Part shown: one piece after another, positions 7,674 through 58,221 of the stretch | Layout of the letters: every line of letters begins with the position of its first letter | Position numbering within the stretch: position 1 is the stretch's first letter | Assembly (NCBI RefSeq): GCF_033153115.1 | Contig: NW_026889835.1 | Coordinates: 2,790,001-2,854,000 of the forward strand | DNA from: Saccostrea echinata | Lineage: Eukaryota | Length of the DNA stretch: 64,000 nt | Direction of reading: 5' to 3' | Position numbers and translations under genes: made by a program | The notes under the pieces: generated by a model | Told to the model about the DNA's origin: nothing | What the model saw: only the letters and a program-made list of their open reading frames with translations | The model's database searches: none

Positions 7674-10600
7674 AATTTGAAATATAGAAGAATAGCTGTT
7701 GTCAATCTTTGTCTTGATCAGCTATTTTTAGAGAAATGTCCCTCTCATAAAAAAAAGTCCAAAATGTTTGAAATAATTTCATGAATTCTTAATTATTTAA
7801 AGATATTCCTATAAATCATATTACAACTCAGGTTTATTTTGATTATCACAACATGAACATCTGCTAGGGGCAGAAGACATTTTAGTGGAATTGCAAAAGG
7901 TGTGAATGGACATTTTAGAAGATCTATAGGACCTTTTTAAGTGGAAGAAAAAAAATGGATACCTGTAAAAATTCAATGGGCATTTAGTGATTTTTTTTTC
8001 ACAAGTAAATTTAATTCATTTTAAAGATTCAATGTAAAATCAGCAAATATTGACCAATTAATTACTAAGTTATCAATTCTAACGAAGACTTCAATGGCAC
8101 AGGTAAAATCAAAACTCAACTCATAAATATGAACAGGAAAGTGCACGAGAACACACAATTTACATTAATTACAATTGAGCAACTGATATAATAAATGTTG
8201 TACATGTAATAGACAAGAAACTTATTAAAATTATGATAAAATCTCTCTGTACAATAGTAATGTAAAACTTTTATTTGATATTTCACGGATTCGTATTTAA
8301 TAGATGTTAAAATATACTCAGACCTGTCATTTAGTAAACACATACTGCTTCACGGAAAAAAAAGCCTTTAAATTTTCATAGAGCAAGATTGCCAGGAACA
8401 AAATAAACTAAAAATATTCAAAAAATCAAACGGAGAGTAAAACAAGGTAAGATTTTAGAATTCGATACAACATGACGAAATCTTTACAAACTCCAGTATA
8501 CCAGGCTGTAATCATGAAACAATTCAAGTCAAAATCTCTATCCTGTCCTGAAATGTTACAGATGTCAGTTTGAAATAAAAAGCATTTCAAGATGGAATTA
8601 TCAAAGTGTAATCTCTTAAATGTTCATTCGCAGATCTAAGGAGGGAAGGGGGGGTTCAGACCCCTCCCCCCGGAATTTGCAGAGTTACCAAAAGTATATA
8701 CTGAAGCAAATAAAAAAAATGACTTTGCCCCCCCCCCCCCCCCCCCTTTAGAAAATGTGGACTCCCCACCACCACATATAGTTTTTTTTTTTCATGTTTG
8801 GGAAAGGACTTTATTATTTTTTTTATTGTTTTTGTTGTTGTATTTTTTTTTTTGGTTTGTCTAGAAATTTCTGGATTGGAAATTTTTTTTGACTGGGTTG
8901 GACTTCTCCCTGTAAAAATTCCATTATCTGCGCCTGAATGTAAGACATCTTTCAGATGATTGAACTCATGCGCGGATCCACTTTGCCTCTAAACTTGATT
9001 GACTTTGAAGGGTATGATAAAAAAAGCCAGTCTTTTCATTACTTAATTAAAGAAAATTCTCAATATCTTTGTTACAAATGTAGAAGTAATGTTCAATAAG
9101 AAATGTATAGAAGTACAGGTATATACTAATAAAACACTTTTATTTACAAATTAAAATGGTAGTGTCTGGCTTGTGCATATAAAAGAAACACTCAACACAT
9201 TAAAGTCTGTTACAAAAGTGTAAACTATTTTAGAAGTAATATGTAGTATAGATTTATGGAGGATCACAATTAAAAAGTAAAGGATAAGAGTTCTCACACA
9301 GGGGTTGATTTGACTTTCATTTCACGTAAATGTCAGCTGTCACCAAGCCTCTCGTCTAGTCCCTCAGAATCCACTATACAGCCTTGTCTATGGTAATGTT
9401 TTAGCAGTTCTTTCCATACAACGTCACATTTTAGCAATTGTTGATTTCCTAAAATAGAAAATCAAAATTCTACACATAAAATGGCAAAAAAATACCTTCG
9501 AGAAAGTAATATAGTCTAAGGCCTTTCAGAAAAAATGACAATACGGAAAAAAATGACACTGGGATGTCCATTTAATGTATTACTGAATAATTTAATGTCC
9601 AAAGCATCAAAGTCTGGAAATCTCTCGGTCTAATATTTCGATGTAATCAAGGATCTATCACACACAGAATAACTCTTCATATGCCACATCATATAAGGTT
9701 ACAGGTTGTAGTGTCACTGCAGGAACTTCGACCAGAGAGGCTTTTTTCTGGTTCAAATCCCGTTGGAACAATGTTTCTCTTCCTTATTATTCTCACATCT
9801 TTATAACTAATATTTGATATTTAAAACCCGAGAACTTAAGAAATTTGTTTCTTATACATGTAACTTGAGTTGCACATTTATTGATGGAAAAAGTATGTCA
9901 CATTCATTCAACCGAAACGCATATCTCAGGGACAATAGCCGTATCATATGTGTCGATTGATAAAGATAAAAATGCCGTGCAAAAACAATTCACTCTTGCC
10001 TTTTAACTGTTTTATCAATTGTACAGTTTGATAATTTTTTGGGGGGACGTTGAGAAAATTTTATCATATAAAGAAGTACACACTAAAATGATCTATGATG
10101 CCATGTTTTCTCCAGGAAGTCTTCAAAGACAGTAAATTTTTAAGTGCACAAAATCACTGTTAACTTGCATTGGGAGAATACATGCGAAAAATGTTTTCAA
10201 TTATTTGTAATGTTCAGAATACTTAATCTATTTTAAATTATATCATTTACTGTAGATTTCCATTTATTCAATATTACATCAAAGGGTACATCACTCTTAC
10301 TGCATAAAACTACTTGTACCGTAGATCAATACAAAGTTTAGAGCTAGAATAAACTGAAATTTACATACTAGAGTAATTCACAGTCCGTAATCAATTTTCC
10401 AAAGTATTCTGAACATATTAAACATAATTGAAGTAATTGAATACTTTATTTGCATGTTTTCCCTATTTAAGTCAGAAGCAATGATTTTTGTTCATCAATT
10501 CTTTTTTCCCTGAGGGAGAATGGCCCTATGTAATAGATCAGCTCAATAGTTTCTCCTTCTTCCGATATAATTTTCTCGTATTAAAGTCCACAACACTTTC

Positions 10601-25215: not shown

Positions 25216-27959
25216 AATGCAAAATGTATATCATTGTCGTAAGTTCTGTACGAAAAAGGAAACAAATCCTGGATCATACATGTATGCTATTAAACAGAAT
25301 AACTGGATTAATTTCTCTTTTTTATAATATTAAATTAATAAGCCAAGCTTTCAGCAACTCTTTTAATAATAGCTTTAAACTGTCCTTTTTAATGAAAAAT
25401 TAAGAAAATCAGGTATTAACATGGGCGCTAATTGTTTTCTATTTCAGACAAAATATTGATTATGTTTATAATCAGAGTTTATTCCCAAAAACATAACTTT
25501 ATCTAGAAAAAATTCCCAGGATAGTTACCCATTTGGGAGCCCACTATATAAGAATCACGTGATGTAATTTACCAATCAGATCAGTTTACATTGTTTGAGT
25601 TTTCAGCGGTTGTGTTTACCTAGAGTTCCTATTTGTTCATATATACTTTCCCATACATCTTTTACTTTCGTTTTATTGGACTTATATCTGTAAATATCGG
25701 ATCTAACTGTCAAAATGTGAAGTTGGAGACTTAATATTTCATGTGCGTTATCCTGGTCAGGGAACTTGGTAAAGTTGGCAACTTGAAATCTGATACGATG
25801 GCCATGTTACATAAACTTTGATTTGACTACATACATTTGAATAACAGTTGGTATACCTAGGTTTTTTTCTGTGCTTGGAAAATTAACGTTTACTACAATG
25901 CCGCGGAGTGCAAGAAGATACTCGAAAAAAAGTGATGATGCTCGTTCTCGTAGTACAGACAGTTCCGAACAAATTAGGGCTAGTACATGTATATTAGGAT
26001 TAGATATGACGAATCCGCTGAATTGGACAGTGGCAAAACTCAGAGAAAAATTACAAGCGATGGGAATGTCTGTGCCTAAAGGTTTCAGTGTAACGGCATT
26101 AAGACAATTATATCAGGAAAATGTCAACAAAAATCAACATCACGTGACAAACCAGCTGCAAATTTCGCGGGAAGACGCGCGAGACTTGGGCGGATATGAC
26201 GTTACACAATCTAATAATTACCGTCTTCCTTGGAAGATGGTATACAGAGTTGAAGGAATCATCACTGCTGGGCGGAAGTAACGTGGTGACTGTCAACAAC
26301 AAAGGCGCCAGCGACAATCGGGAGCTGTTATCCACTTTACAGCTAATGGCAAAATCCTGTACGGCACTCCAACAAACAGTAAACACACTGCTAGAAAAAG
26401 AAAAGAACTCGGACAAAGAAAACCCGTTACAGAGACTTGTTACAAATTTGGGAATAAATTCAAGCGCAGACTCAGGAAGAGGAACCACAGGCGCAACACC
26501 TTTGTTCCTGGAACTCCAAACTCAGAACACAGGTACGCATAACACAATTAATGTAGGGGTCTCATCAAAAGACATAAGGCACATAGACCTAGTAAATCCC
26601 GAAATCAGGAAAAAAATCCTAAGAGGTGACGACATCAATTTGTGTGCGTTACTAATACCTTCATACGAAACGCAGCTACCAACATCTGACAAAGCAGACA
26701 AACAAGACAAACGCCTCTCTCGGAATCTCAGTATTAGCGAATTTGTGACTGCATTTGGGCGTTATAAGCGCATTATGTGCGCACAAAATGCATATCCTTG
26801 GAGACAGGAAGAACTAGATGGCTACTTGGCCCATATCATTGAAGTTCACAATATGTGACCATCTAAGTTTTTGAATACCATAAACTTTTTTCTACGAAGT
26901 GTGCCATATCACTGAAGCAGAACCAGGTACTCATCAACTGGAGCAAAGGGGATGACGAACTATTGAAGCGAGTTGTAGCATGTGAAGAAGTAAGCAAATG
27001 TGACACATGCAGATCAACAACTCATTCAACAGCTATGTGTGTTGAAAAAAACTAGAAGAGTACAAAGACAATTGGCAACACAGTCAAGATCGTCAAGTCA
27101 CAAACATCGTTACGACAGACAAATTATCTAAGTAGATGGCCAACCTGTATGTAAATTTCAACTACAACATATGTGCACTGCCATACTGCAGGAGAGCCCA
27201 TGTATGTGAAACCTGTTTTTCGTCTGGACATGGAAAAAATAAATGTACCAAGCAAGAGGCAGGCAAATCTGCAACATCGGAGATGAGCAAGACAAAATAA
27301 AAAAAAATAAATAAAAACTTGTGACTACCTCTAGATAACCAATCCAATGCCACTACTCCTATCAATATTGAACAATTAAAACATGAATTACAAAATCACC
27401 CTGACAAAGAATTTGTAAATTACTTAAATCATGGTCTTCAATTTGGTTTCGACATTTTTTTTCGGTGATGATTTTCATATGGATAACTCATTTGAGTGTA
27501 AAAATTTAAAATCTGCAACAGAGGATCCAACTACAGTGGATGAACTCTTAGAGAAAGAAGTACAAAAAGGTTTTGTCAAAGGTCCTTTTGACAGTGTAGA
27601 ATTCCCTACTAACAGAGTAAGTCCATTAGGTCTGGCAACAGGAAAATACTCAGGGTAAACGTTTAATTTTGGACTTATCGTCTCCTCACCAAAAGGAAGA
27701 TGTGGAAAGTATCAATGACTTGATAGACAGAGAAAAGTGTTCGCTGAAATATGTTAAAATTGATGATGCCATCAACAATATCAAAAAATTTAGAAAAAGC
27801 GCAATTTTATGTAAAACTGATATTAGTGATGCCTTCAAACTTATTAACTTATTCCAGTGACACCAGAACAGTGGCATTTGTTGTGTGTTAAATGGAGAAA
27901 TAAATATTATTTTGTTCGCTTACTGTTTGGCAGCAGAAAAGGCAACTCCAGTTCCACCA

Positions 27960-37167: not shown

Positions 37168-37307
37168 NNNNNNNNNNNNNNNNNNNNNNNNNNNNNNNNN
37201 NNNNNNNNNNNNNNNNNNNNNNNNNNNNNNNNNNNNNNNNNNNNNNNNNNNNNNNNNNNNNNNNNNNNNNNNNNNNNNNNNNNNNNNNNNNNNNNNNNNN
37301 NNNNNNN
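37168..37307. other. Assembly gap
   Basis: Run of N. Confidence 1.
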
Positions 37308-38964: not shown

Positions 38965-39092
38965 ATGCAGATGAAAAATTATAGAATCCAAATGGAAAAT
39001 TTTACAATACAAATGGAAAATTAAACAATACGAATGGAAAATTATACAATACAAATTGAAAAAAAGAATATTGCAATGTTTGGCATTCCATA
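38965..39092. repeat. 21-bp tandem repeat (AAATGGAAAATTATACAATAC)
   Basis: About 5 units, then ...TGGCATTCCATA. Confidence 0.8.
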
Positions 39093-40249: not shown

Positions 40250-43200
40250 TCATCTTTTTTTACCCTGTCTCTTAAGAAGAGTTAATTTTTGACTGTCGCC
40301 ATCCACTACACAGTCCAATGTTATGTAGTGTCTTATCAGTTCTCTCCAAACAAGGTCACATTGAAGCAGCTTCTTGTTTCCTGCAATTTGTAAATCATAA
40401 ATATCAGACCAAAGGACAACAAAACTAGCTTAACTTATATTTTCCTTCTTAACAAATAAATAACTCAATAAAAACCATATTGTACCACTAAACTTAGGGA
40501 TGTTCGTTTTTCAGACAGGAACAATACTTTCTGAAATTATCATTTGTTAGAATAGTTCGCAAAATGAAGATTGAAATTAATTTGCTTTCGTGCACAAATT
40601 TCGAGGTCTTCGAAATAGTATTGTAATTTGTTGATATATTGCTCCTGATAAAAGGAGAAAATGAAATTTTTATATAAATCAAATTTCATTTAAACTTGCT
40701 TATTAGCATGAAACTAAATAGACATACAGTCATATGTGATAACTTGCAATGGTATCACATGCTACTTACAAAACATATTATATATGATTTAAAGTTAATA
40801 GAAGAAGTTTAAGGTCAAGATCTAGTAAATGACTTTAGACTAACTTTTTGGTGCTAGATCCATTATGACGTCATAATCAATTTCAACTTTCTTTTTCCCG
40901 TACTCTACGGCTCTAATAGAATTATGTAGAAAATAAAGTATTTTCATGGAATTCAATTTGAAATCATGTGAAAAGTAATCCCGATACCTGTATTCAATTT
41001 AATATTTTTTTAAAGAAGAGGCCAAGAACATACAAATTGCCGTTTTCTGAGAGACTGTAGGCAATCTGGATACATTTCCTTTGTCTGATATGGAAAAAAC
41101 TCCCATATTCATGACTGTTTTCTTAATTTTTCATTGAAAATGACAGTGTAAAATATGATTTTTTCGTCTTGTTTATCTACAAAGTATGCCCCGAAACACC
41201 TTATTTGACCAAGCTTAAGTTATAAAGCATCATTAAAGGAATTGATTTCTCAAATTTGAGAAATCTGTAGGCACCTTTCATTTACTAGATCTTGACCTTA
41301 ATATCACATGGTATAAAAAATGCAATTATTTCAGATGCCTGGATATCTTTACTTCTATTCTGAAATATAATTAGGATCAATTTCCGACTAGAAAATGCAT
41401 AGTTTGTGTTTTTATTTGCATTTCCTGAAGAGGTATTTTTGTAATTTTTTCCAATATAATATGGTCAACTACATTGATGAATTTTGAAGAAAATTACATT
41501 TGTTTTTACTCATTACTAGTATTTTGTGAGTTCAGTGACATTTTTGTGATAAATTTCAGTTATTCAACTGCTGACTTTTAGAATATGAGTGACGACAACC
41601 TTCAAGCACAGATTATGATTAATCATTATCAGTATGTGAATATTGATTAATTAGGCCTATGAAGTTAAAATTTGTAGCTTAATAATATAATATAATAATT
41701 AATTAGATACCTATGATAATGATGCCCTTCCTTGCACGAGTAAGGGCCACGTTTATCTGGTGTTCATCTGTAATGAAACCCAGGTTTCTCTTGCGCCATC
41801 CTAGAGATGGATTAGGTTCTATTCTGTAGTCAGGGAGGGATCTGACCGTGCTGAATATGACATAGTCCCACTCACCACCTGATAATGCAGAAGGAAAATA
41901 TATTTTGCAAGGTACTCTAGTTTGCATGTTAACACATTTGAAAAAAAAATACCTTGACTGGAAACAACTGTGTGAACTTTGGAATTAATGAAACCTTTCT
42001 TCAGAAGGGCTTCGCGGATTGCAAAGCATTGTGCATTGTACTGTGACATTACTTTGACATGTTGTGTTTGTATTCCTTTATGCGACATCAGAAACTCATA
42101 CACTCTCACCTGTGGAAAACAAAAAAAAAATTATTTATTGCATGGAAAAATTCATCTACATGTATCACATTGCAGAGAAGCACAGTTTTTGGATTCATTT
42201 AAATACAAGTACAGATATAAAAACATTTTTTGTAGTTCACAGCACTCATAATTTTGAGATTTTTTTCAAACATTAAAGAACTTCATTCGCAGAAACATTA
42301 TTTTGTAAAGGTGATTAATGCACATAAAACATAATGTTATTAAATATTATTCAGGTTTTTTTGGTTAGGGAAGTATTTTAAATTATCGAAGCCATTTTTA
42401 AATTTGCTTTAAATTTAAGATTTCGTGGGATGGAAATTTCACAGAAGTGATATCAATGAAGGATAACGCATATTTTTTCTATATTCTTTAAGATCTTAAA
42501 TTCGCAGGAAATATCCACGTTTTATGAACTTCCACAAAAAATAATTAGTTAACAGAAATTTTGTTTAATTAACAAACGAATATTTCGATTAGAAATGATT
42601 TGAAATTGAATTGTCCTACCACGTGTTCCACTTCTGCCTTGTTGCTTCTCGATTGCTGGTTTCCCTCTTCCGTGGATACTGCCAGGCATTCTTCTTCTCC
42701 TTCCATGTGACAAAACAAGAGGGGTGTGTGTGGATTTCTCCATATTTTTAAAGGTTCCTTGACTTCATATTTTTTTGAAGGTCCAGTTTTAAGTTTTCCC
42801 TTGTAAAACTGTTTGGATGGAAACTCACAAATTTTTTCATTCTGAAAAATGAAAATCAAATATATCATTTAGTTTGATATTACGTTGTCAGATATCTTCG
42901 TTTATAACAACAGCAAAAAATATCCAGTAGTTGAAAGTAAAAATCAACTAGAACTATCCAGAATGGACAAATATCCCCCTCTGGGTTTTTCAGAGAAGGT
43001 GTCAAGTCACCAATACTAATATTTAATGGATCTAAGAGGTGTTCCCATTTTATTTAAACATTTAAAGTGAAAATTTACCGGTAATTGCTCATTATATTTT
43101 TTAATGAATGAAACTAAGGCGCAGTCTAGTAAACATCAATACTAATAATAACATCGTTTGTTATTACATTGAAAAGATAAAAAAACAATTTTCCAAGTAT

Positions 43201-46200
43201 TTCTCTATTGAAAAATATGGATGCATTATTTATCTATCTTTTCTACAGTGACTAAATGTCAAGATCATGACACACCCTTAGGTCATAAGCAATCTTTGTG
43301 TGAAGTGGAAACTCCCAACACCCCAACATTATTCTCCATAAGAAAGAATTATGAACTTTTTCTGCCGGTGGCCTTGAACTTGCCTTGGGTCAAGGACATG
43401 TCACACCCTCAGATCATAGGCAATCTTTGTGTAAAATGGAAACTCACCAAGTTTATCCATAAGAAAGATATGGACTGGACACGAATGATGAACTTTTTCT
43501 GACAGTGACCTTGTATTTGCCCAAATGACCTTGGGTCAAGATCATGACACACCTTCAGGTCATAAGCAATCTTTGTGTAAAATGGGAACTCACCAAGTTT
43601 ATGCATAAGAAAGATACGGACCGGACACGAATTATAAACTTTCTTTCAGTGACCTTGAAGTTGCCCAAATGATATTGGGTCAAGGTCATGACACACCCTC
43701 AGGTTACGAACAATATTTGTATGAAGTAGTACATTCTAATGGTCCTTTGTAACAAAGATATGGACCGGACACGTTTACACAGACAGACAGACAGAGAGAC
43801 GGACAAGGTGATTCCTATATACCCCCAAATTTGTTTGCAGGGGGTATAATAATATATAAACTAACCATTCTGTACTGGGTGTCTAAAAACACAGCATTGT
43901 CTGCAAAACGTTCAAAAAGAGATTTTGACAGTCCTAGTTCAGCCGCCTCTTGACAAATGATGATTGGTTGAAGTTGTTTGTGATCACCAATTAGAACAAC
44001 TTGTTCTGCTTTTGTAGCAATAATTGGAGCCATGGTTTCTGGTTCGGTACACATCCCTGCCTCATCAATAATTAGCTGATATATCTTACCCTCAGTGGCT
44101 TTAAGAAATTTTTGGTTTGTTGCAACTGCAGTTGTGCAAAAAATGACATCATAATGTTTGAGCTCCTCCTGTGTTGCATCTGAAAGTACTTTTCTGTACT
44201 CATTAACTAATTCTGGATCAAAATATATACCGTTTGGATTTTCTTTGAAGAGTTTATCAAACTGTTTGATTTTTTCAGCGAATGGTTTATCCTTTTTTCT
44301 GATCAAATTATGAAGTGACACTTCTACTAAATCTGAATCCGGTCGATTGTCTTTGCAAGAGGATTGGTTTATATAATCTCTACCAGGAACAGGAAAAACG
44401 GTACTTTCTATGGAACTTCCATACATTCTAACCATTTTGGGGCAGAGATCTCGTATATATGTTCTTATCCACCCTATATAGAACGCAAAACTGAGTATTA
44501 AAGCGCAACATTATAATGAAAACGTAAAAGTAATCTTGACCTATATGAAATAACTATAGTAATGATAGTAAATGTTCATGAAAAAGAACGAAGAGAAGTT
44601 AATACATACGTGCTACTAAATCGACAGACTTATTAGAAGGTCCACAATAAACAACCTGATTATGGTCACCACCGTTTTCTCGGTGCGTTAAATTGATGTT
44701 CATGAATAACAAAATAAGCTTGATTCCAGTCAAAGTCTTCCCTGTGCCTAAAACAAACCATAACCTTTTGAATAAAGGAAAATAATCAATGAACTTTTTA
44801 TTCTGTTTAGATCTTCACCTCTGGCATATTCCTTTTTCTCTCAAGTCAAAGTGCCTTGAGTGTTTGATAAGTTTAGCTTTGTTTTTACTTGACATATGAN
44901 NNNNNNNNNNNNNNNNNNNNNNNNNNNNNNNNNNNNNNNNNNNNNNNNNNNNNNNNNNNNNNNNNNNNNNNNNNNNNNNNNNNNNNNNNNNNNNNNNNNN
45001 NNNNNNNNNNNNNNNNNNNNNNNNNNNNNNNNNNNNNNNNNNNNNNNNNACCTACTGATAAATTTTCAAGATATTCTTAATTTAAGATTACAGTGCCATC
45101 AGATGTTCATAGACAAAAAAGCATTATCAGGGGTTTTGAAAAGATATCAATTGATAAAAATTCTTGTATAATTCAAAGAAAAATATGCAAAAATTACTAA
45201 ACATATGTTTATCCAAATTTGTTTTAAAAGAAATGTACAACAGCATATACAGACATTAAAATGTAGCACACAGTTCCTTTAAGTATTGGAACTCTTCAAC
45301 TCCAGGGAAAAAGACAATAAAGTTCAAACTACGTTGCGTATGTCCTTAAGAGTCACCAGAGTATAATCAACACTGTAAAGGATCCATAGGGATCAACAAA
45401 AATAATAAGTCTAGTACTCGGTGACAAATCTTACAGTAGAGCTATCTACTTGCCTGTACTTACCTCCATTTATCACTAGCATCATGCAAACTAAACAAAA
45501 ACAATAGTACTTGACCACTAGTATTAAACCCATCTCATTCCCTCTCACATTGGATTCTCTTGTTCTTTGAAGAACATTAAATATATTCAAAGATAGGTAT
45601 TTTGTCTCATTTTCATTTATCTATTATTTACAAATTTGCGTAACCATTAAAAGAAATGAAAGTACTTTTTGTATTATATATTATAAAAATTCTTGTATAA
45701 TTCTCTTATTCAGTTGACCTTTCAATGACATTATTTATAATGCTTAATTATCATAGGAGATGTGGTAAAAATACCCTTGCTTATTACAACTTTGTACTTT
45801 ATTTTCCCAGGGGCAATGCAGATTTTCAAAGAAATAATGTATTTTCACTAAAGTTTAACAAAATCACACCCAAATTCCCAGTCCCAGGGCTTTGAAATTT
45901 ATGATTTTGAAAAAGCAAACTTGCTCATCACTACTATTTACCTAGTTTTCCTGCTAGATACCTAAGAGCACAGAAGAAGAATTTAAAGAATTAATGGATT
46001 TTCACTATATAAACAATAGAGCCCCGCCCTAACATCAGAGCCCCTGACACATAATTTTGGAAAAAGTACCCCAAAGGCAGAGAAGATTTTTACAGAAATA
46101 ATGCATTTTCACTATATATTCAACAGAGCCCCGCCCTAGCACAAAAAACTCCGGACTCAGGGACTATGAATTTCATAATTTAGAAGAGGCATCATTGCTA

Positions 46201-49200
46201 ATTAAAACCACGTAAATGGTTTTTTTCTGCTAAATACCAAAGGACAAAGAAGATATTTAAAATATTTATGCATTTCACTATCTGATCTATAGAGCCCAAC
46301 ACTAAAATAGAACCCTTGACCCTGATCCATGAAATTCACAATTTTGGAAGAGGCACCCTTGCTCAACTTAACCATGCACTTACTTTTTTCCCTTTATACC
46401 CAGGAGCAGATATTTTCAAACAGATAATACATTTTCACTATAACATCAATAAATCACCCACCACCCACCCCCACCCCTTAGAACCCCTGACCAAGGGACC
46501 AGGAAATTCACAATTTCGGAAGAGGTACCCTTCCTCATCATAACCATGCAACTTAGATTTTTTCCTAAATAATCAGAAGTATAGAAGAAGATTTTTAAAG
46601 AAATAATGCAATTTCACTTTATAATCATTAAAACCCCGTCCTAACACCAGAACCATCTATCCAAGGGCTATGAAATTCACAACTTTTAAAGAAGTACCTT
46701 TGCTCATCATAACTAGTACTTAGGTTGCTGCTTAATACCTTTTAGCAGAGAAAAATATTTTTAAAGAAATATTGCAGTTTAACTATATAATCAATAGATC
46801 CCCACCCCACCAGAATCCCTGACCCTAGGGCCACAAATTTTGGAAGAAGCACCCTTGATAATCATATCCATACACCTAGTTTATCTGCTAAATATACAGG
46901 GAGAGAGAAGAGGAATTTTGAAGAATTTATGCATTTTTACTATATGATCATTAGAGTCCCACCTTTACTGCAGAACCCCTGACGCTTGGGCCATGAATTT
47001 CACAATTTTGGTAGGGGCTCAATGCTTGTTACAACAATAGCAACAGTTCTACTGCTTGTTGTCCAGGAGTAAAGACGATGATTTTTAAAGATTGTATTAA
47101 TTTGATGGTTTTATCCCCAACCCTCGGGCCCCAGGGGGCTGGGACCATGAAATTCACAATTTTTATTCCCTATTACTCATAGATCTTATACATGTATGTC
47201 AAAATTGGTTGAAATTTTGTCAGTGGTTCTAATGTTCAGGTGAGCTAATAAACAAAATATGCCCTAAAACAAAATACCCCTAGTTTGTCTAATCTATACT
47301 TATAAATTAATAAATTTTGCAAATAAACTCCGAAACGGGTGCAAAAGAGTTCTTACTTCTCCTCTAACAATACACTAGATACAAGATGATGTCCGTAAAC
47401 TATATTCAGATTTCACTCTCATAGTAAGTATTGTACATTAAATTAAAAGTCTACTTTCATTTTCTATAAACAGCCATGAAATAGTAAAAACGTGAGTACG
47501 GTGGTGTTTCCGGTTGGCGGATCTAAGTTACTGGCAATTTTTAATGACACTGACAACAAGCAGTCGTTTATTTATTTCATAAAACGTCGTCACTGAATTA
47601 TTCGATCAAAACTTGATTTAAATGATATAAAAGAAATAAGTTGTGATGCCCGATTAAAAAGGGAAATGTGCAAATTATTTTCGCCATTCACCGATCTTTA
47701 TATTGACGGAAGCTTCTAGAACATCATATAGCATCGGGTCCGATGTTAAAAAGAAAAATTAGGCGACTGCATAAATAAAAAAAAAGCTTTAGTGTGAATG
47801 GTCATTGAAATAATGGTAAATCATTGATAACACTATTAGTTCACATTTGTGAATATATTTATATATCGAAAGACTATTATATATACATGTATGTAGTAGG
47901 TTTTCCTAATAAATTTATCGGTAAAATTTGTATAGGCTATATTCCTTACTGAGAGCATCGTGGCAACGAACCCCAAGTACAATTTGTATTTCGTAATAAA
48001 CTTGCTTACATGAAAAGAGAAAATTAATGAATAAGATATTGTTCAAATACAATTAAAGATGTAAAATTTTGTGTTTTAATCAATACATTCCAGTTTTTTT
48101 TTTTAATACAGTCTTTTGTATCAAATACTCGGCCTATTCATAGGGCGTTAAATTAAAAGCCCATTTTTACACAGGTACTTGGGTTTTGGTTTATAAATAC
48201 GTATGTACCTTATTGATATGTAAAAAAAAAGTAAAGTACATTTTTTACATATCAACAAGGTACAAACATATTCAAGTTATAAACCAAGACCCAAGTACCT
48301 GTGAAATTTTACCCCCCCCCCCCAAAAAAAAATCAATTAATCAGTAAAATGTGCATATTCCCTGCTTTTATCCTTGACGGAAATGAAATGAGAGCATCTG
48401 AAGTACAATATCCGTAACATAGTATAAAAGGTGTCACAATAAACGTCAATTAATGAAATTGTTATTTTTCAAGTTTTTACAAAAAAGAGGGGGATGGAGA
48501 CGTACATCTACTTCATTCGGGATTTTGAACAAAGTATTTCTTCCTGCTATAAGCCTGTAGACTGTTAATAGTAGAAACTACAATATATTTACAGTCGGTA
48601 GTGGTATAAATTCAATTTCCCGCTTGCGCGGGATTTCATCTAGTACATTATAACGTAGATCTATTTACTTGCCACTCCTAATACACTCCCATTCGTCATT
48701 ATCATCATGCAGACTAAATAATACAACAGTGCTTGATAACTTGGAGTAAAACACTTCATATTACCTCACACATAGTCTTCTCTTGTTCTTTGAAAAATAT
48801 ATAATGTACAAAGATAAGGTTTTTTGTCTCAAATTTTACAATTACATTATTTACAGTAATTAATTATCAAAGTTGAATAGCAAAGGGTAATAAATTCTCT
48901 CGGTAAAGTATAATAAAGTATATTTCCCTACAACATCAATAGAGCTCGGCTCTGCAGAAGAACAGTCGACCCATTGATCCAGAGTTTCAAAAATCTGGTA
49001 AAAATACCCTTGCTCATTACAACTTTGTACTCTGCTTCCTAGATGCCAATGAGCAGAGAAGATTTTTGAAGCATTAATACATTTTCACAATATAATCAAT
49101 AGGGTCCCTTCCTAACACCAAAACTCCTGACCTAGGGGATTTAACTTTAACAACTTTGGAAGAGGCACCCTTGCTCATAATAATCATACACTTTGTTTGC

Positions 49201-52200
49201 TTAATATCCAGGAGCAGAGAAGAAGATTGTCAAAGAAAAAAAGTGCATTTCGAATGTATTATCAATAGAGCCCCGCCCTAATACCAGAACCCCTGACCCA
49301 GGGGCCCTAAATTTCACATTTTTGAAAAAAGCATCCTTGCTCATCATTACTAAGTACTTTGTTTGCATTTTACCCATTTTCAAAGAAATAATGCATTTTT
49401 ATTACTAGTATATGATCAAATGAACCCCATCCCAGCGCCAGAACCCCTAAGCCACGGACCATGACTTTCACGATTTTGGAAGAGGCACCCTTATTCATTA
49501 TTACCATGCACTTAGATTGTCTGCTAAATATACGCTTGGAGAAAAGAAACTTTTTAAAAAAAATATTCACTATATCATCAAGGAGTCCATCCCTAACCCT
49601 ACCATAGCTCAGTTCTTATTACAATCATCTCAATAGTTTAATTATTTGATGTCAAGGATTTTTTTACAGATTGAATTTATTTTGATGGTTTTAGTCCCAC
49701 CCAGGGCTCAGGCCCCAGGGGAGACAAGAATCAAGAAATTTAACACTTTTGGTTCCCTTTACCCACAGATGCTATATACATGTAAGAAATTGATTGAAAT
49801 TGGTTCAGTGGTTCCAGAGAAGAAGCGGAAAATGTTCAAATGTCAACGCACGACCAACGACCATAGACGAAAACGGATAGCAATAGGTAATCTCTGTGAC
49901 TCAGAGGACGTAATAAAATGCAAATATACAACCCGTTCTCATTTAAATCATGCAAAAATGTAGGAGTAATCTATAGTAACTGGCCATAAGTCTTCATAAA
50001 AATGGCTGCCGAAGTATCAAACCTCAGAAAGCCATTTTTTTGGGTAAATAAATCCCTCTAAACAAGCCGCTGTTGAATAGTTCCTTTCTATAGGGTGAGT
50101 TAACCATGCATCGGACACATACCTTGCTTCGGACAACTTTAAGCAATAAACTTTCATTGAACCTGAGTCTCCCTGTGTTTTTACTTGTTTCTGTTTTAAA
50201 GTTGAAGATTTAAACTTTTAAATGATGCCGATTTTTTATTTTCATGTTGTGATAAAAATACCACAAGAATGGCCTTGAAATTACGTCATATTTTGCATCA
50301 TCAAATGGGAGTAACCAGAAATTTACGATTTTGCGATTTTTAGAGTTGTCGCTCTTTTAAATAGATTTCAACGGAACGAGTCAGGTCTAGGTAAAATTTG
50401 TCAACGATTGATAATTTTACAGAAATTTTTCAAAAATTCTACTTCAATGTTTGTATAATAATTTTTAGAGTTGTTTTTTACTAGCTTGTTTATTTCACCG
50501 TACATCGGACACAAATTAACCATGCATCAGACACTTTCCGATGCATGGGTAATCACTTCCATTTTCATATAAAACCCAAATGACAGTTGCTTTTTACGGA
50601 AATAGAAAATAAAAACTCTGACCTCTAAGTGAAAATACAATTATAGATATAAGACGACTAGAAGTGGACTCAATTTATTTCTTTAAATTAGATGATGATA
50701 ACCCACGAGACAAAGGCGCGAGTTGCCATATTACTAGCATTGTAAAGCCTTTCTAAGGCGATGTGATGTACCTAAAATCTCTTTACATTTGTGGATCAAA
50801 ATAGTCATTCAAATTTAACTAGAAGTTTAATTTTTTAATAAAAGATAAAAATGTTTCGATATCACTAATTTTAAAGCACCGAGATCAAGGTATGATATTT
50901 TTCAGGTTTAAATACCGTATGTCCGATGGATGGTGAATATTGTCCGATCCATGGTGAATTCTGACTTATTTCGAAAAAATCGTGTTTTAATGGTATTTTC
51001 CCCAGTATATAGGCTAGCACATGATTGTGTCAAAAATTTATATCTTAACCACATACTACATATTAAGTTCCATTTAGATAATATTCGGTCGGTAGCGATA
51101 CCGCTAGAACTTGTTGAAGTGCGAGGGCGTCCGATGCATGGTGAATTCACCCTAGAGTGTATACAATAATTTAACGACACCTTATAAAAGTGACGTATTA
51201 TCTGTCAAATATTTAGCAAATGCAAGATGGCTACTAAAGGTAAACAAATGTCTACCCCTACCCCAATGAAAAATGCTATAATAACTTTCTTTGAGAGTGG
51301 ATATACCCACCAGGACATTGCTACTATTCTTTGTGTGAGCCAGTCTGGGATTTCCAAGTTTCTTAAGCGATACAAGATGCGCGGATCCAGTGAAATAAGC
51401 ATCGAAGCGGACGCCCTAGAAAAACTGATGTACGAGGTGATCGTAAGATACTACGATGTGTGAAACTCAACAGACGGCAAACTCTGTCGGAAATAACTGA
51501 TGAAGTGAACTCAAAATTACCAAGTTCCATCTGTTCACGGACAGTAAGAAGACGTTTGCGATTTTTTAACTTTACAAGAAGGAAAACCAGGAAGACCCTG
51601 ACAATTCGGTCTGTAAACCGCACTCGCCCTGTAAATTGGTGTCGAGGTAAATAACATTGGACAGTGAATAATAATTGGAAAAGGTGATTTTCAGCGATGA
51701 AACTCAGGTTGTGATTGATCAGAATACGCGAGTTTACATCTAGAGAAGACCGGACGAAGTATTGCGACCTGAGTGTCTTGGCGTAAATACTTGGCGATGC
51801 TTTGGGGGTGTATTACTCATGAAGGAGTCGGAACATTTACAGAAGTCGATGGGAATATTAATTCCCCAAAATACATAAACATTTTGGATACAAATGTATG
51901 GCCTGTTATTTTGCGTCACTTCCCGAATGGTGACTATTTATTCCAGGACGAAGACCGGTTCACTCCACTCATAAACGCCACGAAATTATGGAAAACCGAA
52001 AACGAAATTAAATGTCTAACTTGGCCATCACAATTTTCAGATATAAATTTAATTGAAAATGTGTGGAGAACCATAAAATATGAGTTCAGAGACAGGTACA
52101 CAATATTTATAATCTTGAAGACCTTATACCTTATCATGAAATTTAAGGAAATATGGCGGTCACTGCCTCAGCACTACATTCAGAGCCTGTATGCTTCAAT

Positions 52201-52875
52201 TCCAAGGCGAATCCGACAAGTTATTAAAACTAAGGGTCAAGCAACTAAATACTAGAGATAAAAGGGTAATCACTTAATATTTATAAAGTTATTTTATTTT
52301 TGAATTTACGTTTACGTTGTTCACGTTACGTTACGTCAGCCATTTTATTACAGACTTATGGCCAGGTACTGTACATCTTAATTCTACATCAGACATCAAC
52401 GGATGAACAGGCTGAATATGTATAATCATAAATATTGCATGGAATCGATCCTAGGGCTTTCCACAGGAAAACGAAAATACCAATTACATGATAAATATTA
52501 CAGAACTATCACAAACAATATTCGGAATAATTGAAAAAGCACTTACCAGGTGGTCCTTGTATGAGAGTAAATCTTGAACATAAAGCCTTTTTTATAGCTT
52601 CTAGCTGTTTTTCGTTGTTGGGCTGCAAAGAGTCGTGTATCACGTCCGGTCTAATTTGTTTTCCCAGTCTTACATGGACATCGTCTGTAATATAAAGTTT
52701 AAAAACATCTTATTATTGATGATTACAACAATAAAATTTCAAATTTTTCTTCAAATTGTAGTGGGACAAAACCAACTGATTACCTAGAGAATGAATTTCT
52801 CCTCTCAGAGCTATCGATTTCGCAAGCTCTTTTCCTGACTCTAATCCCTTAACAGCATCCTCAATATTCCTGAAA

Positions 52876-52967
<92 letters not shown>

Positions 52968-53918
52968 GATGTAAACTAGTATCCGGTTAACCGGGTACTC
53001 GATCGAACGTCCAATTATCAAATAAAACTCGATTACTCGGATGTAGATTTTTTTTTTATCATATTTCAAAGTGCATATATTTATTAAAACTTATCAAAAA
53101 ATTTTGATTTAAATATGCCTTGTCCATGTCTATACAGTAATCACCTACACTAGTTTATACCCGCTATCGCCTGTGTACATGTTTATACAATTACCGTGAC
53201 CAATCACTGGACACTGTAAAAAGCTGTTCTCACATCTTGTGACCCTAATATTTGGATGGTTTCAATTATTTATTTTCAATAAACATGGTTCAATTATGAT
53301 ACATTAATTATCCTTGGATTATTTAATTAGAATACGGTAGCGAAATCGGACATATTAAAAAATAACCGAAGATTAAAAAATATATATTAAAAGTCACCTG
53401 TGCATAGTTTTAAGTAATCACTTTTTAGTTGGTTGGGTATGCCAGGGCTTCAAAGGCAGTTGAAAACGTGGGATAATTTATGCATCACGGGTGAAGTTGT
53501 AAATATCGAGAAATCAACATACTTTCAGAGTTAACACAGAGAAACATTTGGAAAGATAAATAATATACGACTCGTGATCACAACAACGTCCATTCCCAAA
53601 GATATTTTCTTTCGATAGTCTAATCATTACAAAGTTGCATCCTTCTCTTCCGTTGATTAAATTGTCTTCCGTAAAGCATTTGTATTAATTGGTCGTCTTT
53701 TGTGTTTGATACATAAATTAAGTACCAAAAATTGTTTTTGTTGGGCTCGATGTTTATGTACATACATTAAAAACGAAAGAAAACATCGATGAAGTACACA
53801 GGTCTTAATAAAATCAACAAACGTTTACATGTATATATGCACTTTTTCCGAGTACCCGGGTACTCGATCGGAAAATTGTCCGAGTAACTGATTATCAAAT
53901 ATTGACCGATTTAACATC

Positions 53919-53980
<62 letters not shown>

Positions 53981-56900
53981 TTTTTTTCTATTTAACGCCA
54001 TTTATCTAATAGGTTTCCGATTCATTATTTCATTGGAAGATCTTACTTATCTGCTTCAGACATTTGAAGTATTTCAACGGCACATGTTGGATTGCCGGAA
54101 TCTATCATAGAAAGACTTGGTTTTGGACTGTCTCTATGCAGTTTAAAATGAACTTTAACGTCTCCATTTTCTCTACCCTTTTGACAAAATTTTGTTTCTC
54201 CATGACCAATCCATATCCTTCGTTCTTCTGGTGAACATGCAATACTTGGTCGCGAAGGAACACCCTTTACTAGCTCGCATCGAATGCAAAGAAAATCCGT
54301 TTGGTCAGAAACTGTGTTTTCTGAATTGTTCTCAACGTGCCAACGAAAATCTATATCTCTTTGAAGACAAAAATGTTTCAAAAGTACAAAAGAACCGTCA
54401 TATTTCTTGCCTGTGTAAAACTTAACATGCAAATCGTTTATAACTATTGATAAAGATTTAGTTGCATTGGTAACTGATTCCATTCGAAATATGTTCAACC
54501 AACGACTCACATATTCGGGTGATGTCATTTTTCTGTTGCCTTCGTGCATTTTGGCATAAGAAGAGAAACATTGTACTGGATCAGACATGTGTTGAATACA
54601 GCATTTAAGATTCCTTGTAATTTCTAACAGCTGAATAGATGGCATCAACATTCCCTTACTGCGTTCTACTCCGATTTGAATAGGAATGACTTGAGCTTTG
54701 CTAAAGGTGAGTTTGAACTCCGTATATTGTTTTCCAATCACGCCATCTTTTGTTTCAGAGCTTGCATCAGAATGTGTACCTTGACACTCAAAAACACTTG
54801 GTAGATCCTCATTCCCCTCAAAAATCTTCTTATTCAACAAATTCATATCATCTCTGATAAGAGAATCTACGAGCTTTTTCCATTTTTTCAAGGACACATA
54901 GGTTACTTTTTGATGTGGATTTAAACATACTGGTCCTCCTATAGAATTAGAGGCACCTGCAGAAAATCCCAGTGTTGAATACAAACGCTGTTGCCATGAC
55001 AGGGTAAGTAAATGCTTTTTATCACAATCTTCCTCTAAAAGTGGTTTTGACTTTAACTTCATTAGATGGTAATTAATTTCACCACACGAATTTGCTAGCT
55101 CACTTTGGCCGGGAAAACAAATGGAAACAGATTTTTCTGATGCCGACTTGACCAAGGTATGTAAAATGACTGGCTGTCTTTCGAGTTGCCTTCCAAGATG
55201 CAGCAATCGACATTTCCTTTCAAATTCTCGAGGTCGACTTCTGTTGACATTTTTGCATATCATTTCAACTTCTCTTTGAGAGTAGGGTGACACTTTATTG
55301 TCAAGCAGTGCATGAACCAATCGATTTGCAATCAAATCTGCATAACGTCGGATTGGAGAAGTAAAGTGTACATAAGGATAAATGCCTAGAGAAAAATGTA
55401 TTTTCTCGTGAGGTGATCCAGAACATTCATAACGTGAAGTCTCTTGAAATGACATCCATGAGTCATAAGCAGATGCTTGTTGTGGATGGAATTCATCGGT
55501 ACCTATGAATCTCTGTAAATTCTTAAAGTCTCCCTTGCTATAACTTGAAACTATTTTGTTCCAAACATGCTTTTGTATTGGTAGTTGTTGAGACATTTGG
55601 TGTTCATGAATTTTATCAACAGACAATATTTTACCATTTTCAAGACATTTATGTTGAAGCGAAAGTACGAAATTCGCAATGACGGAAAAATTCAAAAGCC
55701 ATTCATTCATTCTATGGGAAGATGGCTTACTTTGAACACGAAGAGGTATACAATCTGGAAATGCCTCGATTAATATTTTGCCAATAAATTGGTTTGCAAG
55801 AATCATGCATTCTTCTACTATAATATGTGCATCGATACTTTGAAAATATGATTTACTGCATTCAGTATCAGGTGATTCAAATGGAAATGAAAACATTCCA
55901 TTTCCTAGTCGCTTAGACCGTATTTGTTTGGTAAAAGCAGATAAAATTTCCAATTCTTGTTTAAAGTTTTCGTTTTTATTTGCTTTTGATAATAATTTTT
56001 GCACTTCCAGATATGTGAAGCGTCGCCTAGACTTAATTTTTGTGCGGTCCAGCCTTTGTTCCAAGATATTTCCATCCTTATCTATTCTGAAAAAAATTGA
56101 AAGAGTTTTTCTCTCCTGGTGAGGCAAAAGACTACAAATATCTGTTCCTAAAGGCTCTGGGAGCATATGAAATGGTTGACAGTTTTCCCCTGGATAGAAA
56201 GTATTTGATCTTTCCAGTGCCTCTACATCAACAGGATCATCCCTCTTTACAACACTGCCAACATCTGCAATATGGACTCCGATTTCAAATTCTGTTTCTG
56301 AGATAGTCTGTACACTGAGAGCATCATCTAGATCTTTTGAATCACTTTCATCGATTGTAAAAGCATTGAGACTCTCGGAAAAATCTGTTCTATGTTCATC
56401 GCCGTTCAGATGTGCCTTTCGTTTTAAGATCTTTTCCACTTCACGGACTGTACTTTCTTTGTATATTACAGAAACATTGCTCTGCAGACAAACCAGTTTA
56501 AGAGAGGTATTTAAGTCACATCTAAAATCGTACACTCCTATAATGGCTCCCTTTGGATAAATTTCATTCCAAGCAATGAAACACACCAGAAAAGTGTATC
56601 CTTTTCTTTTTGATCGATGTATTGTTTTCAGTCGATCGAATTTTAAGTCTTTTGCTCTTTTGTCGTATTTGTAAATTTCTACTTGAAATTTTGTTTTTTG
56701 TCTCTCATTAAGAACATGAATTTTTGGAACCGTTTTACATACAGGTTTCATAAGATGCATCACATATTGATCAATGGTACAAACAAAGACGGGGTTCTTG
56801 GGCAATGTTTCATTTCTCTTCGTTATTCCAACAATTTTTCCGAATGATTTATTCTCATTCTCTTTAGAAAACGTTGCAGATTGTATTGAACAATCAGCTT

Positions 56901-58221
56901 GTTTTTCACGATTTTTTAGAATTTCAACAACAACTTCATCTTGATTGAAGGCCTTTCCACATTTAGACCGCCCTGATATTTCAATTTCTATGTCTTCATC
57001 AAGAGACGAACAAAGTGCCCTGTGGGGATTAAAAATTTTTATTTTGCAATGTTTGTACTTCTGAGGAAAGTTTTTACACAGCTGAAGACTTTCATTTGCA
57101 CTCAGCATTTCCTCATAAATTTGTGGTTGTTTTTTCCTGGAGGAATTTATGAATCTTTTCGATAAATCAAGGCCATTGGTTAATAAGTTTTCATCATTAT
57201 TTCTGTCCCGATGCTTATTTTGGTAAAATTTGCGCGATTCTTCGTAATAATTTTTCTTTTTTGATTCTGTTTCATGTTGTGACCCGCTGGAATTTTTCTT
57301 TGCTGAAAATTCCTCATCGGTTTCAGAGTCCATGTCATTCTCTTCTGACATTTCGGATGATAACGAGTCAAAATCATCCTCAAGTAAAGCCGTTGAATCG
57401 GTTACGTCAGTTGCTTTCTGAAGCCTAAACCGCACATCAGAATGTTTTTCCTTATGTATTTGTTGCCGATGTTGAGAACTTTCCACTTCATGATGCATCT
57501 TATGAAGTCTTTGTTCTCTGCTTCGATCTTTTCTTGTGGATAAATTAAATTTGGTAGAGTCATCTATGCTTCCATTTTGTCTTTTCTCATCAGCGATTGT
57601 TTTAAGAATACTGTGATCTTCATTGTCGATCAGAGAGTCAAAACTGTAATCAAGTCGACTATCACTGTTTCTTCTTTTAGCTGGAAAAAGTGTATTTACT
57701 GAAATACTTTGAAACATTTTGATATTGCTTTGAAGAATAACGATTTTGCTAATTAGACATACTTACGCCTGCTTCTTTGTTTTTTCTTCTTGGGTGTCAT
57801 GTTCTCAGAAATCCTTGACAATTGTGACTGAAACATTACATATTACAATAAATATAGATTTTATTCTGCTGTATATGAAAATTCCAAAATGAGGACAAGG
57901 GAGTGAAATATTATATACCTCATGAAATTCATAAGCATATGTGCCTTTTAACCATTCTGTATCCGGTTTATGGTTGTTTCTGGAGGATTGCTGCAGTTCC
58001 CTCTGATGCTGAGGTATTTCTTGTTTCGGTTCCTATTGAAAATTCTTCATGTTTGTATCTAATTTATTTTTATATCAAAGTTGTAATAGTCGATAAATAG
58101 CATGATTTGAATTTTTCTGTAAAATATTCTTCCTGAAAATCTATGATTGGATCTGCAAGTGTGAAAGATTAGAAGTTACCTCATCTTTTACTTCGTATGT
58201 CCTTCCAAGGTGTGCACCCAT
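40250..58221 (-). CDS. HELZ2-like RNB exoribonuclease/UPF1-like SF1B helicase, copy B; apparently intact, about 1832 aa
   Basis: Exons (minus) 58221-58180, 58032-57919, 57827-57767 (these three less certain), 57680-54047, 52869-52784, 52684-52547, 44747-44610, 44473-43866, 42841-42620, 42109-41953, 41878-41711, 40380-40250. Total 5499 nt with consistent phases. RNB motifs FTIDESDSKDLDDALS, EIGVHIADV, YVHFTSPIRRYADL. Helicase motifs FTLIQGPPG|TGKT, YCGPSNKSVD, IIDEAGM, LIGDHKQLQP, LDTQYRM, TVVSSQGGEWD, QINVALTRARKG. Confidence 0.9.
40813..41297. mobile_element. Kolobok-like MITE in the last intron of copy B
   Basis: Perfect 20-bp TIRs GGTCAAGATCTAGTAAATGA / TCATTTACTAGATCTTGACC with TTAA on both sides. 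GG termini favour Kolobok over piggyBac. Confidence 0.8.
43245..43850 (-). mobile_element. HINE-type element with approximately 140-bp repeats
   Basis: Four CATGACACACC..AGGTCATAAGCAATCTTTGTGT monomers, (ACAG)n, and terminal palindrome TATACCCC...GGGGTATA. Confidence 0.75.
44900..45049. other. Assembly gap
   Basis: Run of N. Confidence 1.
45760..47250. repeat. Approximately 160-170-bp satellite array within a HINE-type element
   Basis: About 8 monomers (GAAATAATGCATTTTCACTATA..CAATAGAGCCCCGCCCTA..CAGAACCCCTGACC..AATTTTGGAAGAGGCACCCTTGCTCA), ending TCAGGTGAGCTAA. Confidence 0.8.
48171..48303. mobile_element. Short hairpin MITE
   Basis: CACAGGTACTTGGGT(T/C)TTGGTTTATAA arms, imperfect inverted repeat of about 60 bp. 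Confidence 0.7.
48930..49915. repeat. Second array of the same approximately 165-bp satellite/HINE family
   Basis: Same monomer as 45760-47250. The upstream flank 48765-48835 resembles 45540-45612. Confidence 0.78.
50093..51152. mobile_element. Approximately 1.06-kb non-autonomous TIR element nested in the Tc1 5' region
   Basis: TIRs GGGTGA(G/A)TT(A/C)ACCATGCATCGGAC with TA flanks; internal copies of ACCATGCATCGGAC near 50500-50550 and 50920-50960. Confidence 0.8.
51227..52255 (+). pseudogene. Tc1 (DD34E-type) transposase, frameshifted
   Basis: HTH IATILCVSQSGISKFLKRYK, ICSRTVRRRL, VIFSDETQV, MLWGCI, LFQDED, WPSQFSDINLIENVW, LYASIPRRIRQVIKTKGQATKY, spread over several frames. Confidence 0.9.
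52879..53977. mobile_element. hAT-like MITE (52964-53922) inserted in a (TA)n microsatellite
   Basis: Termini AAGGGATGT(A/T)AA resemble the Ac-type AGGGATG TIR; subterminal CCGGGTACTCGATCG at both ends; (TA)n on both sides. Confidence 0.72.
54047..57680 (-). CDS. 3.6-kb exon of copy B: acidic/low-complexity linker, RNB domain and pre-helicase region
   Basis: Lies within the 1224-aa ORF 54043-57717. Acceptor TTTTTCCAG and donor AA|GTAAG. Confidence 0.92.

What the first reader, a model, noticed from the sequence alone, without database searches (positions are those of the whole stretch)
9333..58221. Tandem pair of 'half-HELZ2' nuclease-helicases (RNB plus a single UPF1-like helicase): candidate antiviral RNA-decay cluster
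Seen: two minus-strand paralogues, each an RNase II/RNB domain followed by one SF1B helicase. Seven internal exons are identical in size (86/138/138/608/222/157/168 nt), yet the RNB-exon proteins are strongly diverged. Copy B splices from an ATG through three small exons and a low-complexity linker straight into the RNB region, leaving no room for zinc fingers or a first helicase. Known: vertebrate HELZ2 is an interferon-stimulated protein with zinc fingers, two UPF1-like helicases and a central RNB domain. Inference: this is a reduced architecture in a duplicated, fast-evolving family, acting as a self-contained unwinding and 3'-5' degradation machine in bivalve innate immunity.
Basis: partly seen in the sequence, partly recalled or inferred. 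Interest (0 to 1): 0.8.

Follow-up and report, generated by a model that had tools for sequence, protein, structure and literature searches.

The report
Mollusc one-helicase HELZ2 nuclease family
These oyster genes belong to a mollusc-wide offshoot of the antiviral RNA-degrading enzyme HELZ2 that has dropped its zinc fingers and first helicase, usually in exchange for a helical protein-binding domain, which gives a natural stripped-down version of the enzyme to study.

Summary
The window matches Saccostrea echinata. Copy B is RefSeq XP_061168135.1 (1832 aa, 'HELZ2-like'): CSD/OB-RNB-S1-like region plus one intact UPF1-like helicase, no zinc fingers, no first helicase. All seven exon sizes match. 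Three corrections. (1) Copy A is broken in this assembly (two frameshifts, one stop); its S. cucullata orthologue is intact. (2) It is not a pair: two further paralogues share B's contig length and neighbouring accessions, implying an array of at least four. (3) The one-helicase form is not an oyster reduction. It is a clade spanning bivalves and gastropods (98 sequences, none with helicase 1), distinct from canonical HELZ2, which limpet and Batillaria also keep. Most full-length members (33 of 54) carry a roughly 250-aa TPR-like solenoid where zinc fingers and helicase 1 would be. A and B lost it; B's first exon looks like the decayed last TPR exon. Pacific oyster HELZ2-like genes, five with consecutive IDs, are induced by poly(I:C) and OsHV-1, but I could not map them to this clade. 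No paper describing the architecture was found in eight searches. Verdict: new variant of a known kind; enzyme activity and antiviral role are inferred.

The parts
40250..58221 (-). Copy B, intact 12-exon gene, 1832 aa (XP_061168135.1). Coding exons: 58221-58180, 58032-57919, 57827-57767, 57680-54047, 52869-52784, 52684-52547, 44747-44610, 44473-43866, 42841-42620, 42109-41953, 41878-41711, 40380-40250
   Evidence: spliced model identical to the RefSeq protein
58180..58249 (-). B exon 1 (70 nt): probable decayed last exon of the TPR-like domain, with an in-frame TGA two codons before the annotated ATG (58221)
   Evidence: best register of 2012 against P0004 and of 1977 against P0002; 2 of 63505 window positions fit P0004's segment as well; protein-level score alone not significant
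57767..58032 (-). B exons 2-3: conserved PDxEWLxGT motif and basic cluster KKKKQRSRPKRR (NLS-like; label from recall)
54047..57680 (-). B large exon: acidic disordered linker, CSD/OB (aa 265-363), RNB (aa 503-866, catalytic D-x5-D-x-DD at 513-525), S1-like and further beta-rich region before the helicase
40250..52869 (-). B helicase exons: single UPF1-like SF1B helicase (aa about 1327-1805) with motifs Q, I, Ia, II, III, V, VI intact
9333..19466 (-). Copy A, broken in this assembly. Exons 19466(ATG 19409)-16124, 16035-15950, 15641-15504, 15314-15177, 15046-14439, 14333-14112, 13972-13816, 11299-11132, 9448-9333; 79% identical to intact S. cucullata XP_062574953.1
17245..17260 (-). Copy A frameshift 1, at an A8 run just after the RNB domain
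17035..17050 (-). Copy A frameshift 2, at an AT-rich run
14457..14459 (-). Copy A in-frame TGA inside the helicase, just before the QYRM motif

Best explanation
A tandem array of a mollusc paralogue lineage of HELZ2 in which zinc fingers and helicase 1 were replaced by a TPR-like solenoid. Copy B is an intact, secondarily TPR-less member; copy A is a recently broken copy or null allele of another TPR-less member. Likely working: the single SF1B helicase (equivalent to HELZ2 helicase 2) loads on single-stranded RNA, moves 5' to 3' using ATP and strips the paired strand, while the freed 3' end threads through the CSD/S1 clamp into the RNB site and is cut 3' to 5'. TPR-bearing paralogues would be aimed by a protein partner; B would act with little targeting. 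The array is probably switched on by the oyster interferon-like dsRNA response against viral and transposon RNA. Shown here: architecture, intact motifs, clade, TPR-like fold of relatives, lesions in A. Inferred: catalysis, coupling, TPR role, induction of these particular genes.
For: Architecture: all 22 named mollusc hits over 2120 aa (of 51 hits) have one helicase and no CCCH match. In the 168-sequence tree, the clade holding the named one-helicase molluscs has 98 sequences, 0 with helicase 1 or zinc-finger hits; 54 include the helicase, none has two Walker A motifs, 33 hit the N-terminal helical profile. That domain models at pLDDT 93 as 12 helices and matches TPR proteins (Foldseek best E 4.6e-4; VIA Z up to 12.8); the Lottia member passes Pfam TPR_12's cut-off. 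Canonical HELZ2 exists separately in Lottia and Batillaria; coral, deuterostomes and the nearest unnamed relatives have helicase 1, so its absence is derived. Catalytic motifs intact in B; B's RNB exon model matches Dis3L2/Rrp44/RNase R. In human HELZ2, helicase 2 is the more active ATPase and matters more against LINE-1, and helicase plus RNB degrade duplex RNA (PMC10516660; PMC9839780). C. gigas CGI_10027441-45, all annotated HELZ2-like, rise after poly(I:C) (log2FC 1.0 to 4.4 at 10 days) and after OsHV-1 (PMC7064767; PMC6182001).
Against: No activity or expression data for B. The induced C. gigas genes could not be mapped to this clade (one search found no paper with the IDs; one carries a zinc-binding GO term) and may be pieces of canonical HELZ2. 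Loss of either human helicase cut ATPase more than expected, so one helicase may be weaker. Support for the mollusc clade excluding its helicase-1-bearing sister was 0.946 in FastTree but only 79.4 SH-aLRT in a fast IQ-TREE run. TPR-like Z-scores under about 13 are generic for helical repeats. All architectures rest on predicted gene models. A mussel paper lists helz2 as a bacteriocyte regulator, not an antiviral gene.
Confidence: 0.68

Rival explanations
1. Same enzyme, but a housekeeping or developmental RNA-turnover or transcriptional co-regulator role, possibly nuclear, rather than antiviral defence.
For: A strong basic NLS-like cluster upstream of the CSD in 26 of 34 mollusc proteins against 2 of 11 canonical ones in the matching linker (unequal window sizes). 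Mussel helz2 appears as a bacteriocyte network hub (PMC13401447 passages). Purifying selection between A and B.
Against: All 8 HELZ2-like entries in the C. gigas priming table are up after poly(I:C) (the table lists only regulated genes), and Helz2 rises at 24 h of OsHV-1 infection (bioRxiv 10.64898/2026.05.15.723513 passages). Tandem expansion with gene death is typical of immune families (general knowledge).
Confidence: 0.15
2. B is itself a decaying gene: its TPR exons lie beyond the window, the TGA in exon 1 disconnects them, and the 1832-aa product is a by-product of annotation.
For: In-frame stop just before the ATG in an exon that starts at a splice acceptor; only 5.8 kb upstream was visible; the neighbour A is broken.
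Against: B has no lesion in 1832 codons and differs at only 7 of 287 conserved columns, like intact paralogues (4-9). Exon 1 is far more diverged (5-6 of 23 residues) than the rest of the protein (63-86%), implying old loss of constraint. Other TPR-less models exist in S. cucullata, C. virginica and O. edulis.
Confidence: 0.12
3. Both copies are pieces of canonical two-helicase HELZ2 genes whose 5' halves were missed.
For: The window ends 5.8 kb upstream of B; introns here reach 7.8 kb.
Against: No helicase-1 or zinc-finger exon in the 21 kb between B and A; in canonical genes the tail of helicase 1 lies in the same ORF as the RNB region, whereas here that place holds an acidic linker; close paralogues begin with a TPR-like domain; canonical mollusc HELZ2 forms another clade.
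Confidence: 0.03

Closest known systems
Vertebrate HELZ2 (PRIC285/PDIP1)
   Same: Homologous CSD/OB-RNB-S1-like core (Pfam OB_HELZ2) followed by a UPF1-like helicase with the same motifs; nests among HELZ2 proteins in trees.
   Different: No zinc fingers, no helicase 1; relatives carry a TPR-like solenoid instead; all four catalytic aspartates kept; multi-copy tandem array; 25-28% identity over the RNB exon.
Canonical mollusc HELZ2 (Lottia XP_009060068, Batillaria KAK7471580)
   Same: Same phylum, same RNB core.
   Different: Retains zinc fingers and helicase 1 and falls in a separate clade with deuterostome HELZ2.
[quoted passage not shown]
   Same: These are the same family; B is one of them.
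   Different: The annotation name implies zinc fingers that are absent; the TPR-like domain has no Pfam hit in 14 of 14 proteins scanned.
DIS3L2 / RNase R, and the mitochondrial degradosome Dss1-Suv3
   Same: CSD-CSD-RNB-S1 exonuclease fold; Dss1-Suv3 also pairs one RNB nuclease with one helicase (recalled; its structure 6f4a appears).
   Different: DIS3L2 and RNase R have no fused helicase; Suv3 is a separate SF2 3'-5' helicase (recalled), whereas here an SF1B helicase is fused.
Putative human HELZ2-alpha isoform
   Same: Would also have RNB plus only one complete helicase.
   Different: Judged a probable artefact of incomplete splicing (PMC10516660 passage); here the form is genomic and conserved.

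Membership tests
Canonical HELZ2 | N-terminal C2H2/CCCH zinc-finger array | tested here: not met
   No Pfam, regex or custom-profile hit in B or in six frames of the window; 0 of 98 clade members
Canonical HELZ2 | First UPF1-like helicase before the RNB domain | tested here: not met
   One Walker A only; no helicase-1 exon in the window; DNA beyond 64000 not seen
Canonical HELZ2 | CSD/OB folds, RNB domain, S1-like domain | tested here: met
   PF25049 E 1.7e-19, PF00773 E 2.9e-73; model matches Dis3L2, E 7e-38
Canonical HELZ2 | RNB catalytic aspartates and SPIRRY motif | tested here: met
   FTIDESDSKDLDD at 513 and HFTSPIRRYAD in B
Canonical HELZ2 | C-terminal UPF1-like helicase with intact motifs | tested here: met
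   Motifs Q, I, Ia, II, III, V, VI in B; best PDB match UPF1, E 8e-51. Broken in A.
HELZ2 lineage by descent | RNB region groups with HELZ2 proteins | tested here: met
   Top non-mollusc hits are HELZ2; trees (no DIS3 outgroup included)
Canonical HELZ2 | 3'-5' RNase and nucleic-acid-stimulated ATPase activity, ATP-dependent duplex decay | not testable with these tools
   Needs purified protein
Canonical HELZ2 | Induction by interferon or dsRNA | tested here: inconclusive
   C. gigas HELZ2-like genes induced, identity with this clade unresolved; ISRE-like motifs upstream: 2 in 5.8 kb for B, 3 in 6.5 kb for A, 18 in the whole window, not clearly enriched
TPR-like solenoid (N-terminal domain of relatives) | Stacked helical hairpins matching TPR structures | tested here: met
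   applies to paralogues, not to A or B
IFIT-type RNA-binding TPR | Basic RNA-binding channel, IFIT fold | tested here: inconclusive
   Net charge -13 to +4 in 21 domains; surface not examined

The most novel reading that the evidence does not exclude
Molluscs evolved a second, modular class of HELZ2: a TPR adaptor fused to a one-helicase RNA degradosome, amplified in tandem as interferon-like effectors. Variable TPR domains recruit the enzyme to different viral or host RNP targets, and repeated TPR loss (B, the A lineage) yields untargeted versions. With an unnamed clade that keeps zinc fingers but also lacks helicase 1, this would show that RNB plus helicase 2 is the true minimal HELZ2 machine and the N-terminal half an exchangeable targeting module.
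Probability: 0.4. Interest if true: 0.72.

Novelty: new variant of a known kind. Interest (0 to 1): 0.5.

Why it matters
How HELZ2's two helicases and RNB domain divide the work is stated as open, and the human protein could not be made in bacteria or baculovirus (PMC10516660). Copy B is a natural 1832-aa form with only the RNB module and helicase 2, so it tests directly whether that pair suffices for duplex RNA decay. [quoted passage not shown] It is a domain swap in a known family, not a new kind of system.

Tried and rejected
Upstream TPR, zinc-finger or helicase-1 exons in the window: tblastn and profile searches found none beyond the exon 1/2 remnants; a sliding codon-distance scan for other decayed TPR exons gave only background-level hits. 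Searching with the TPR alignment returned 1 protein among 8000 candidates and covered only 467-2000 aa, so it says little about range. ESM Atlas for the TPR domain gave only leads under 0.9; for B it returned three HELZ2-like clusters of 1551-1842 aa without taxa. IFIT structures were not among the rows shown, which does not exclude them. An ancestral myristoylation signal for B's MG start was considered (9 of 45 N-termini start MG, 4 fit MGxxxS/T) and set aside because B's ATG seems to have arisen inside a TPR exon. Relaxed selection in A: 15 versus 9 changes at 287 conserved columns against its intact orthologue, 9 versus 3 private, suggestive only; branch lengths are similar, so assembly error or a null allele is not excluded, though three lesions make pure error less likely. 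Rfam: no match. Mapping C. gigas CGI IDs to sequences failed. Seven of ten deep-branching relatives looked up had no name. My first gene model, an exon end, the first copy-A read-through and tree and one dN/dS row had frame or time errors and were redone. Rows left out of trees and counts: two unnamed hits, the 32 representatives under 300 bits, redundant isoforms, two sequences covering under 60% of the core, and the RNase R/DIS3-type hits. No oyster DNA outside the window was available; viral and metagenome contig collections stayed unchecked.
Full report
Observation. Six-frame ORFs and Pfam show two minus-strand genes, each with OB_HELZ2, RNB and AAA_11/AAA_12 pieces. The seven internal exons have identical sizes in both copies. 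[quoted passage not shown] B keeps the RNB catalytic motif (FTIDESDSKDLDD) and all helicase motifs checked; its closest solved relatives are UPF1 for the helicase and DIS3/RNase R for the nuclease, and a model of the large exon (pLDDT 83.5) matches Dis3L2 and Rrp44. Profiles of helicase 1 and of the zinc-finger region, built from named two-helicase HELZ2 proteins, found no extra exon in the window.

Copy A is broken here. Against its S. cucullata orthologue XP_062574953.1 (1631 aa, 79% identical) it changes frame twice and has a stop in the helicase. Both frameshifts lie in simple runs, so assembly error is possible, but there are three lesions and a slight excess of changes at conserved columns (15 against 9 of 287). 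The orthologue begins at the same methionine, and two unnamed relatives have the same short leader, so the A lineage is a real, old, short form. A and B differ most in the RNB exon (50-57% against 71% in the helicase), but dN/dS is 0.21, 0.31 and 0.11 with dS 1.2-1.7: an old duplication under purifying selection. Between the two Saccostrea species, RNB identity is 79-80% for the A-type and 137-type pairs and 88% for the 138-type pair, so part of the array does evolve faster.

The array is larger than a pair. I infer at least four genes, the others outside the window.

The family. A search for proteins over 2120 aa gave 51 hits; 22 are named molluscs (scallops, mussels, clams, Solemya, abalone, limpet, caenogastropods) and all 22 have a single helicase, while the named sea urchin, coral and vertebrate hits that I examined have two, bar one contaminant-flagged model (12 of the 27 named non-mollusc hits were examined). 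An unindexed phmmer search added relatives; ten two-helicase ones were named as amphioxus, hemichordates and echinoderms. In a tree of 168 sequences over the CSD-RNB-S1 core, the one-helicase molluscs form one clade of 98 sequences, named and unnamed, none with a helicase-1 or zinc-finger hit. Support is 0.946 in FastTree and 79.4 SH-aLRT in a fast IQ-TREE run on 50 sequences; with the helicase-1-bearing unnamed sister P0291 it is 99.8. Lottia and Batillaria also have canonical proteins with zinc fingers and helicase 1 in a different clade. So this is a second HELZ2 lineage, present before bivalves and gastropods split, alongside the canonical one. Whether oysters keep canonical HELZ2 I could not determine. 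The tree was rooted on a coral sequence by choice.

What replaces the missing half. Most full-length members begin with a roughly 250-aa helical domain (33 of 54 by an iterated profile), followed by a PDxEWLxGT-like motif, a basic cluster and an acidic linker. AlphaFold gives it 12 helices at pLDDT 93. Foldseek and VIA-align return TPR proteins (LGN, Cpr7, TOM70, AIP; Z up to 12.8, a level that is generic for helical repeats), and the Lottia member passes the Pfam TPR_12 cut-off. Its net charge is neutral to acidic, which fits protein binding better than IFIT-like RNA binding (inference). A and B lack it. B's first exon, 58249-58180, aligns without gaps to the last 23 residues of the domain in the two closest paralogues: the register ranks first of about 2000 by codon distance, the exon's first base fits a split codon of the invariant tryptophan, and the next exon carries the next conserved motif. 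A glycine position reads TGA and the ATG sits two codons later. The protein-level score alone is not significant (p 0.23-0.66), so this rests on position and codon distance. It suggests that B lost its TPR by truncation.

Mechanism. Human HELZ2 degrades duplex RNA only with ATP, active helicases and a 5' overhang on the partner strand; helicase 2 is the stronger ATPase, though the two seem coordinated (PMC10516660: abstract, passages, sections 22, 25, 26 and most of the discussion). Helicase 2 mutants relieve LINE-1 repression more than helicase 1 mutants (PMC9839780, passages). The retained helicase is the helicase 2 equivalent, so B plausibly unwinds and degrades by itself. This is inference.

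Immune role. In C. gigas, eight HELZ2-like entries are 'sustained' after poly(I:C), five with consecutive IDs CGI_10027441-45 (log2FC 1.0-4.4 at 10 days; 1.6-2.9 one day after OsHV-1 in unprimed animals) (PMC7064767, supplementary file 5 rows and header). Nine are flagged antiviral in PMC6182001, with earlier rises in resistant oysters (supplementary file 6 rows; units not checked). A single-nucleus preprint reports Helz2 up at 24 h (passages; its supplement was closed). Consecutive IDs fit a tandem array like this one but may also be fragments of fewer genes, and I could not tie them to sequences. A mussel study treats helz2 as a bacteriocyte regulator (passages); a zebrafish preprint lists HELZ2 among ancestral ISGs (passages).

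Novelty. The genes are already annotated as HELZ2-like, and the HELZ2 paper notes homologues in corals and molluscs without describing them in the text I read; its supplementary alignment was not seen and may bear on this. Searches (listings only, open-access library) showed no paper on a one-helicase or TPR-bearing HELZ2. By defining features this is not canonical HELZ2, but it descends from it and probably works like its C-terminal half.

Noticed in passing
P0243, P0244, P0248, P0251, P0262, P0285, P0293 and others (one search hits): A well-supported clade of 16 unnamed ORFs has a Cys/His-rich zinc-finger-like region directly before the CSD-RNB core and no helicase 1 (9 of 16 hit the zinc-finger profile): a third HELZ2 architecture, possibly an independent loss. 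Taxa unknown.
   Followed up: partly
window 108-5496 (+): 3' exons of an IFT172 gene, converging on copy A (E 9e-26); a synteny anchor for finding the array in other oysters.
   Followed up: partly
window 19748-20516: A roughly 770-bp foldback element (89% self-complementary) just upstream of copy A; MITE-like, could form long dsRNA.
   Followed up: no
window 25841-28974 (+): Degraded element with gag-like, RT-like and tyrosine-recombinase-like ORFs (DIRS/Ngaro type by recalled motifs; no significant Pfam hit) between the two copies.
   Followed up: partly
window 51194-52252 (+): Tc1/mariner transposase remnants inside B's 7.8-kb intron (HTH_Tnp_Tc3_2, DDE_3).
   Followed up: partly
window 59586-61366 (+): Fragmented non-LTR-type RT ORFs 1.4-3.1 kb upstream of B's ATG (weak RVT_1); may mark the break that removed B's TPR exons (speculation).
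   Followed up: partly
mollusc relatives P0153, P0165, P0166, P0171: N-termini fit MGxxxS, a myristoylation-like signal (4 of 45 listed; 9 start MG), hinting at membrane anchoring in some members.
   Followed up: partly
P0352 (Haliotis rubra, 469 aa); P0168 and P0170 (Lottia): The TPR-like domain occurs in a short model without RNB in abalone (possibly a split gene model) and apparently in two or three copies in the limpet proteins.
   Followed up: no
window 37168-37307 and 44900-45049: Two assembly gaps; the second lies in a B intron 150 bases from the Walker A exon.
   Followed up: no
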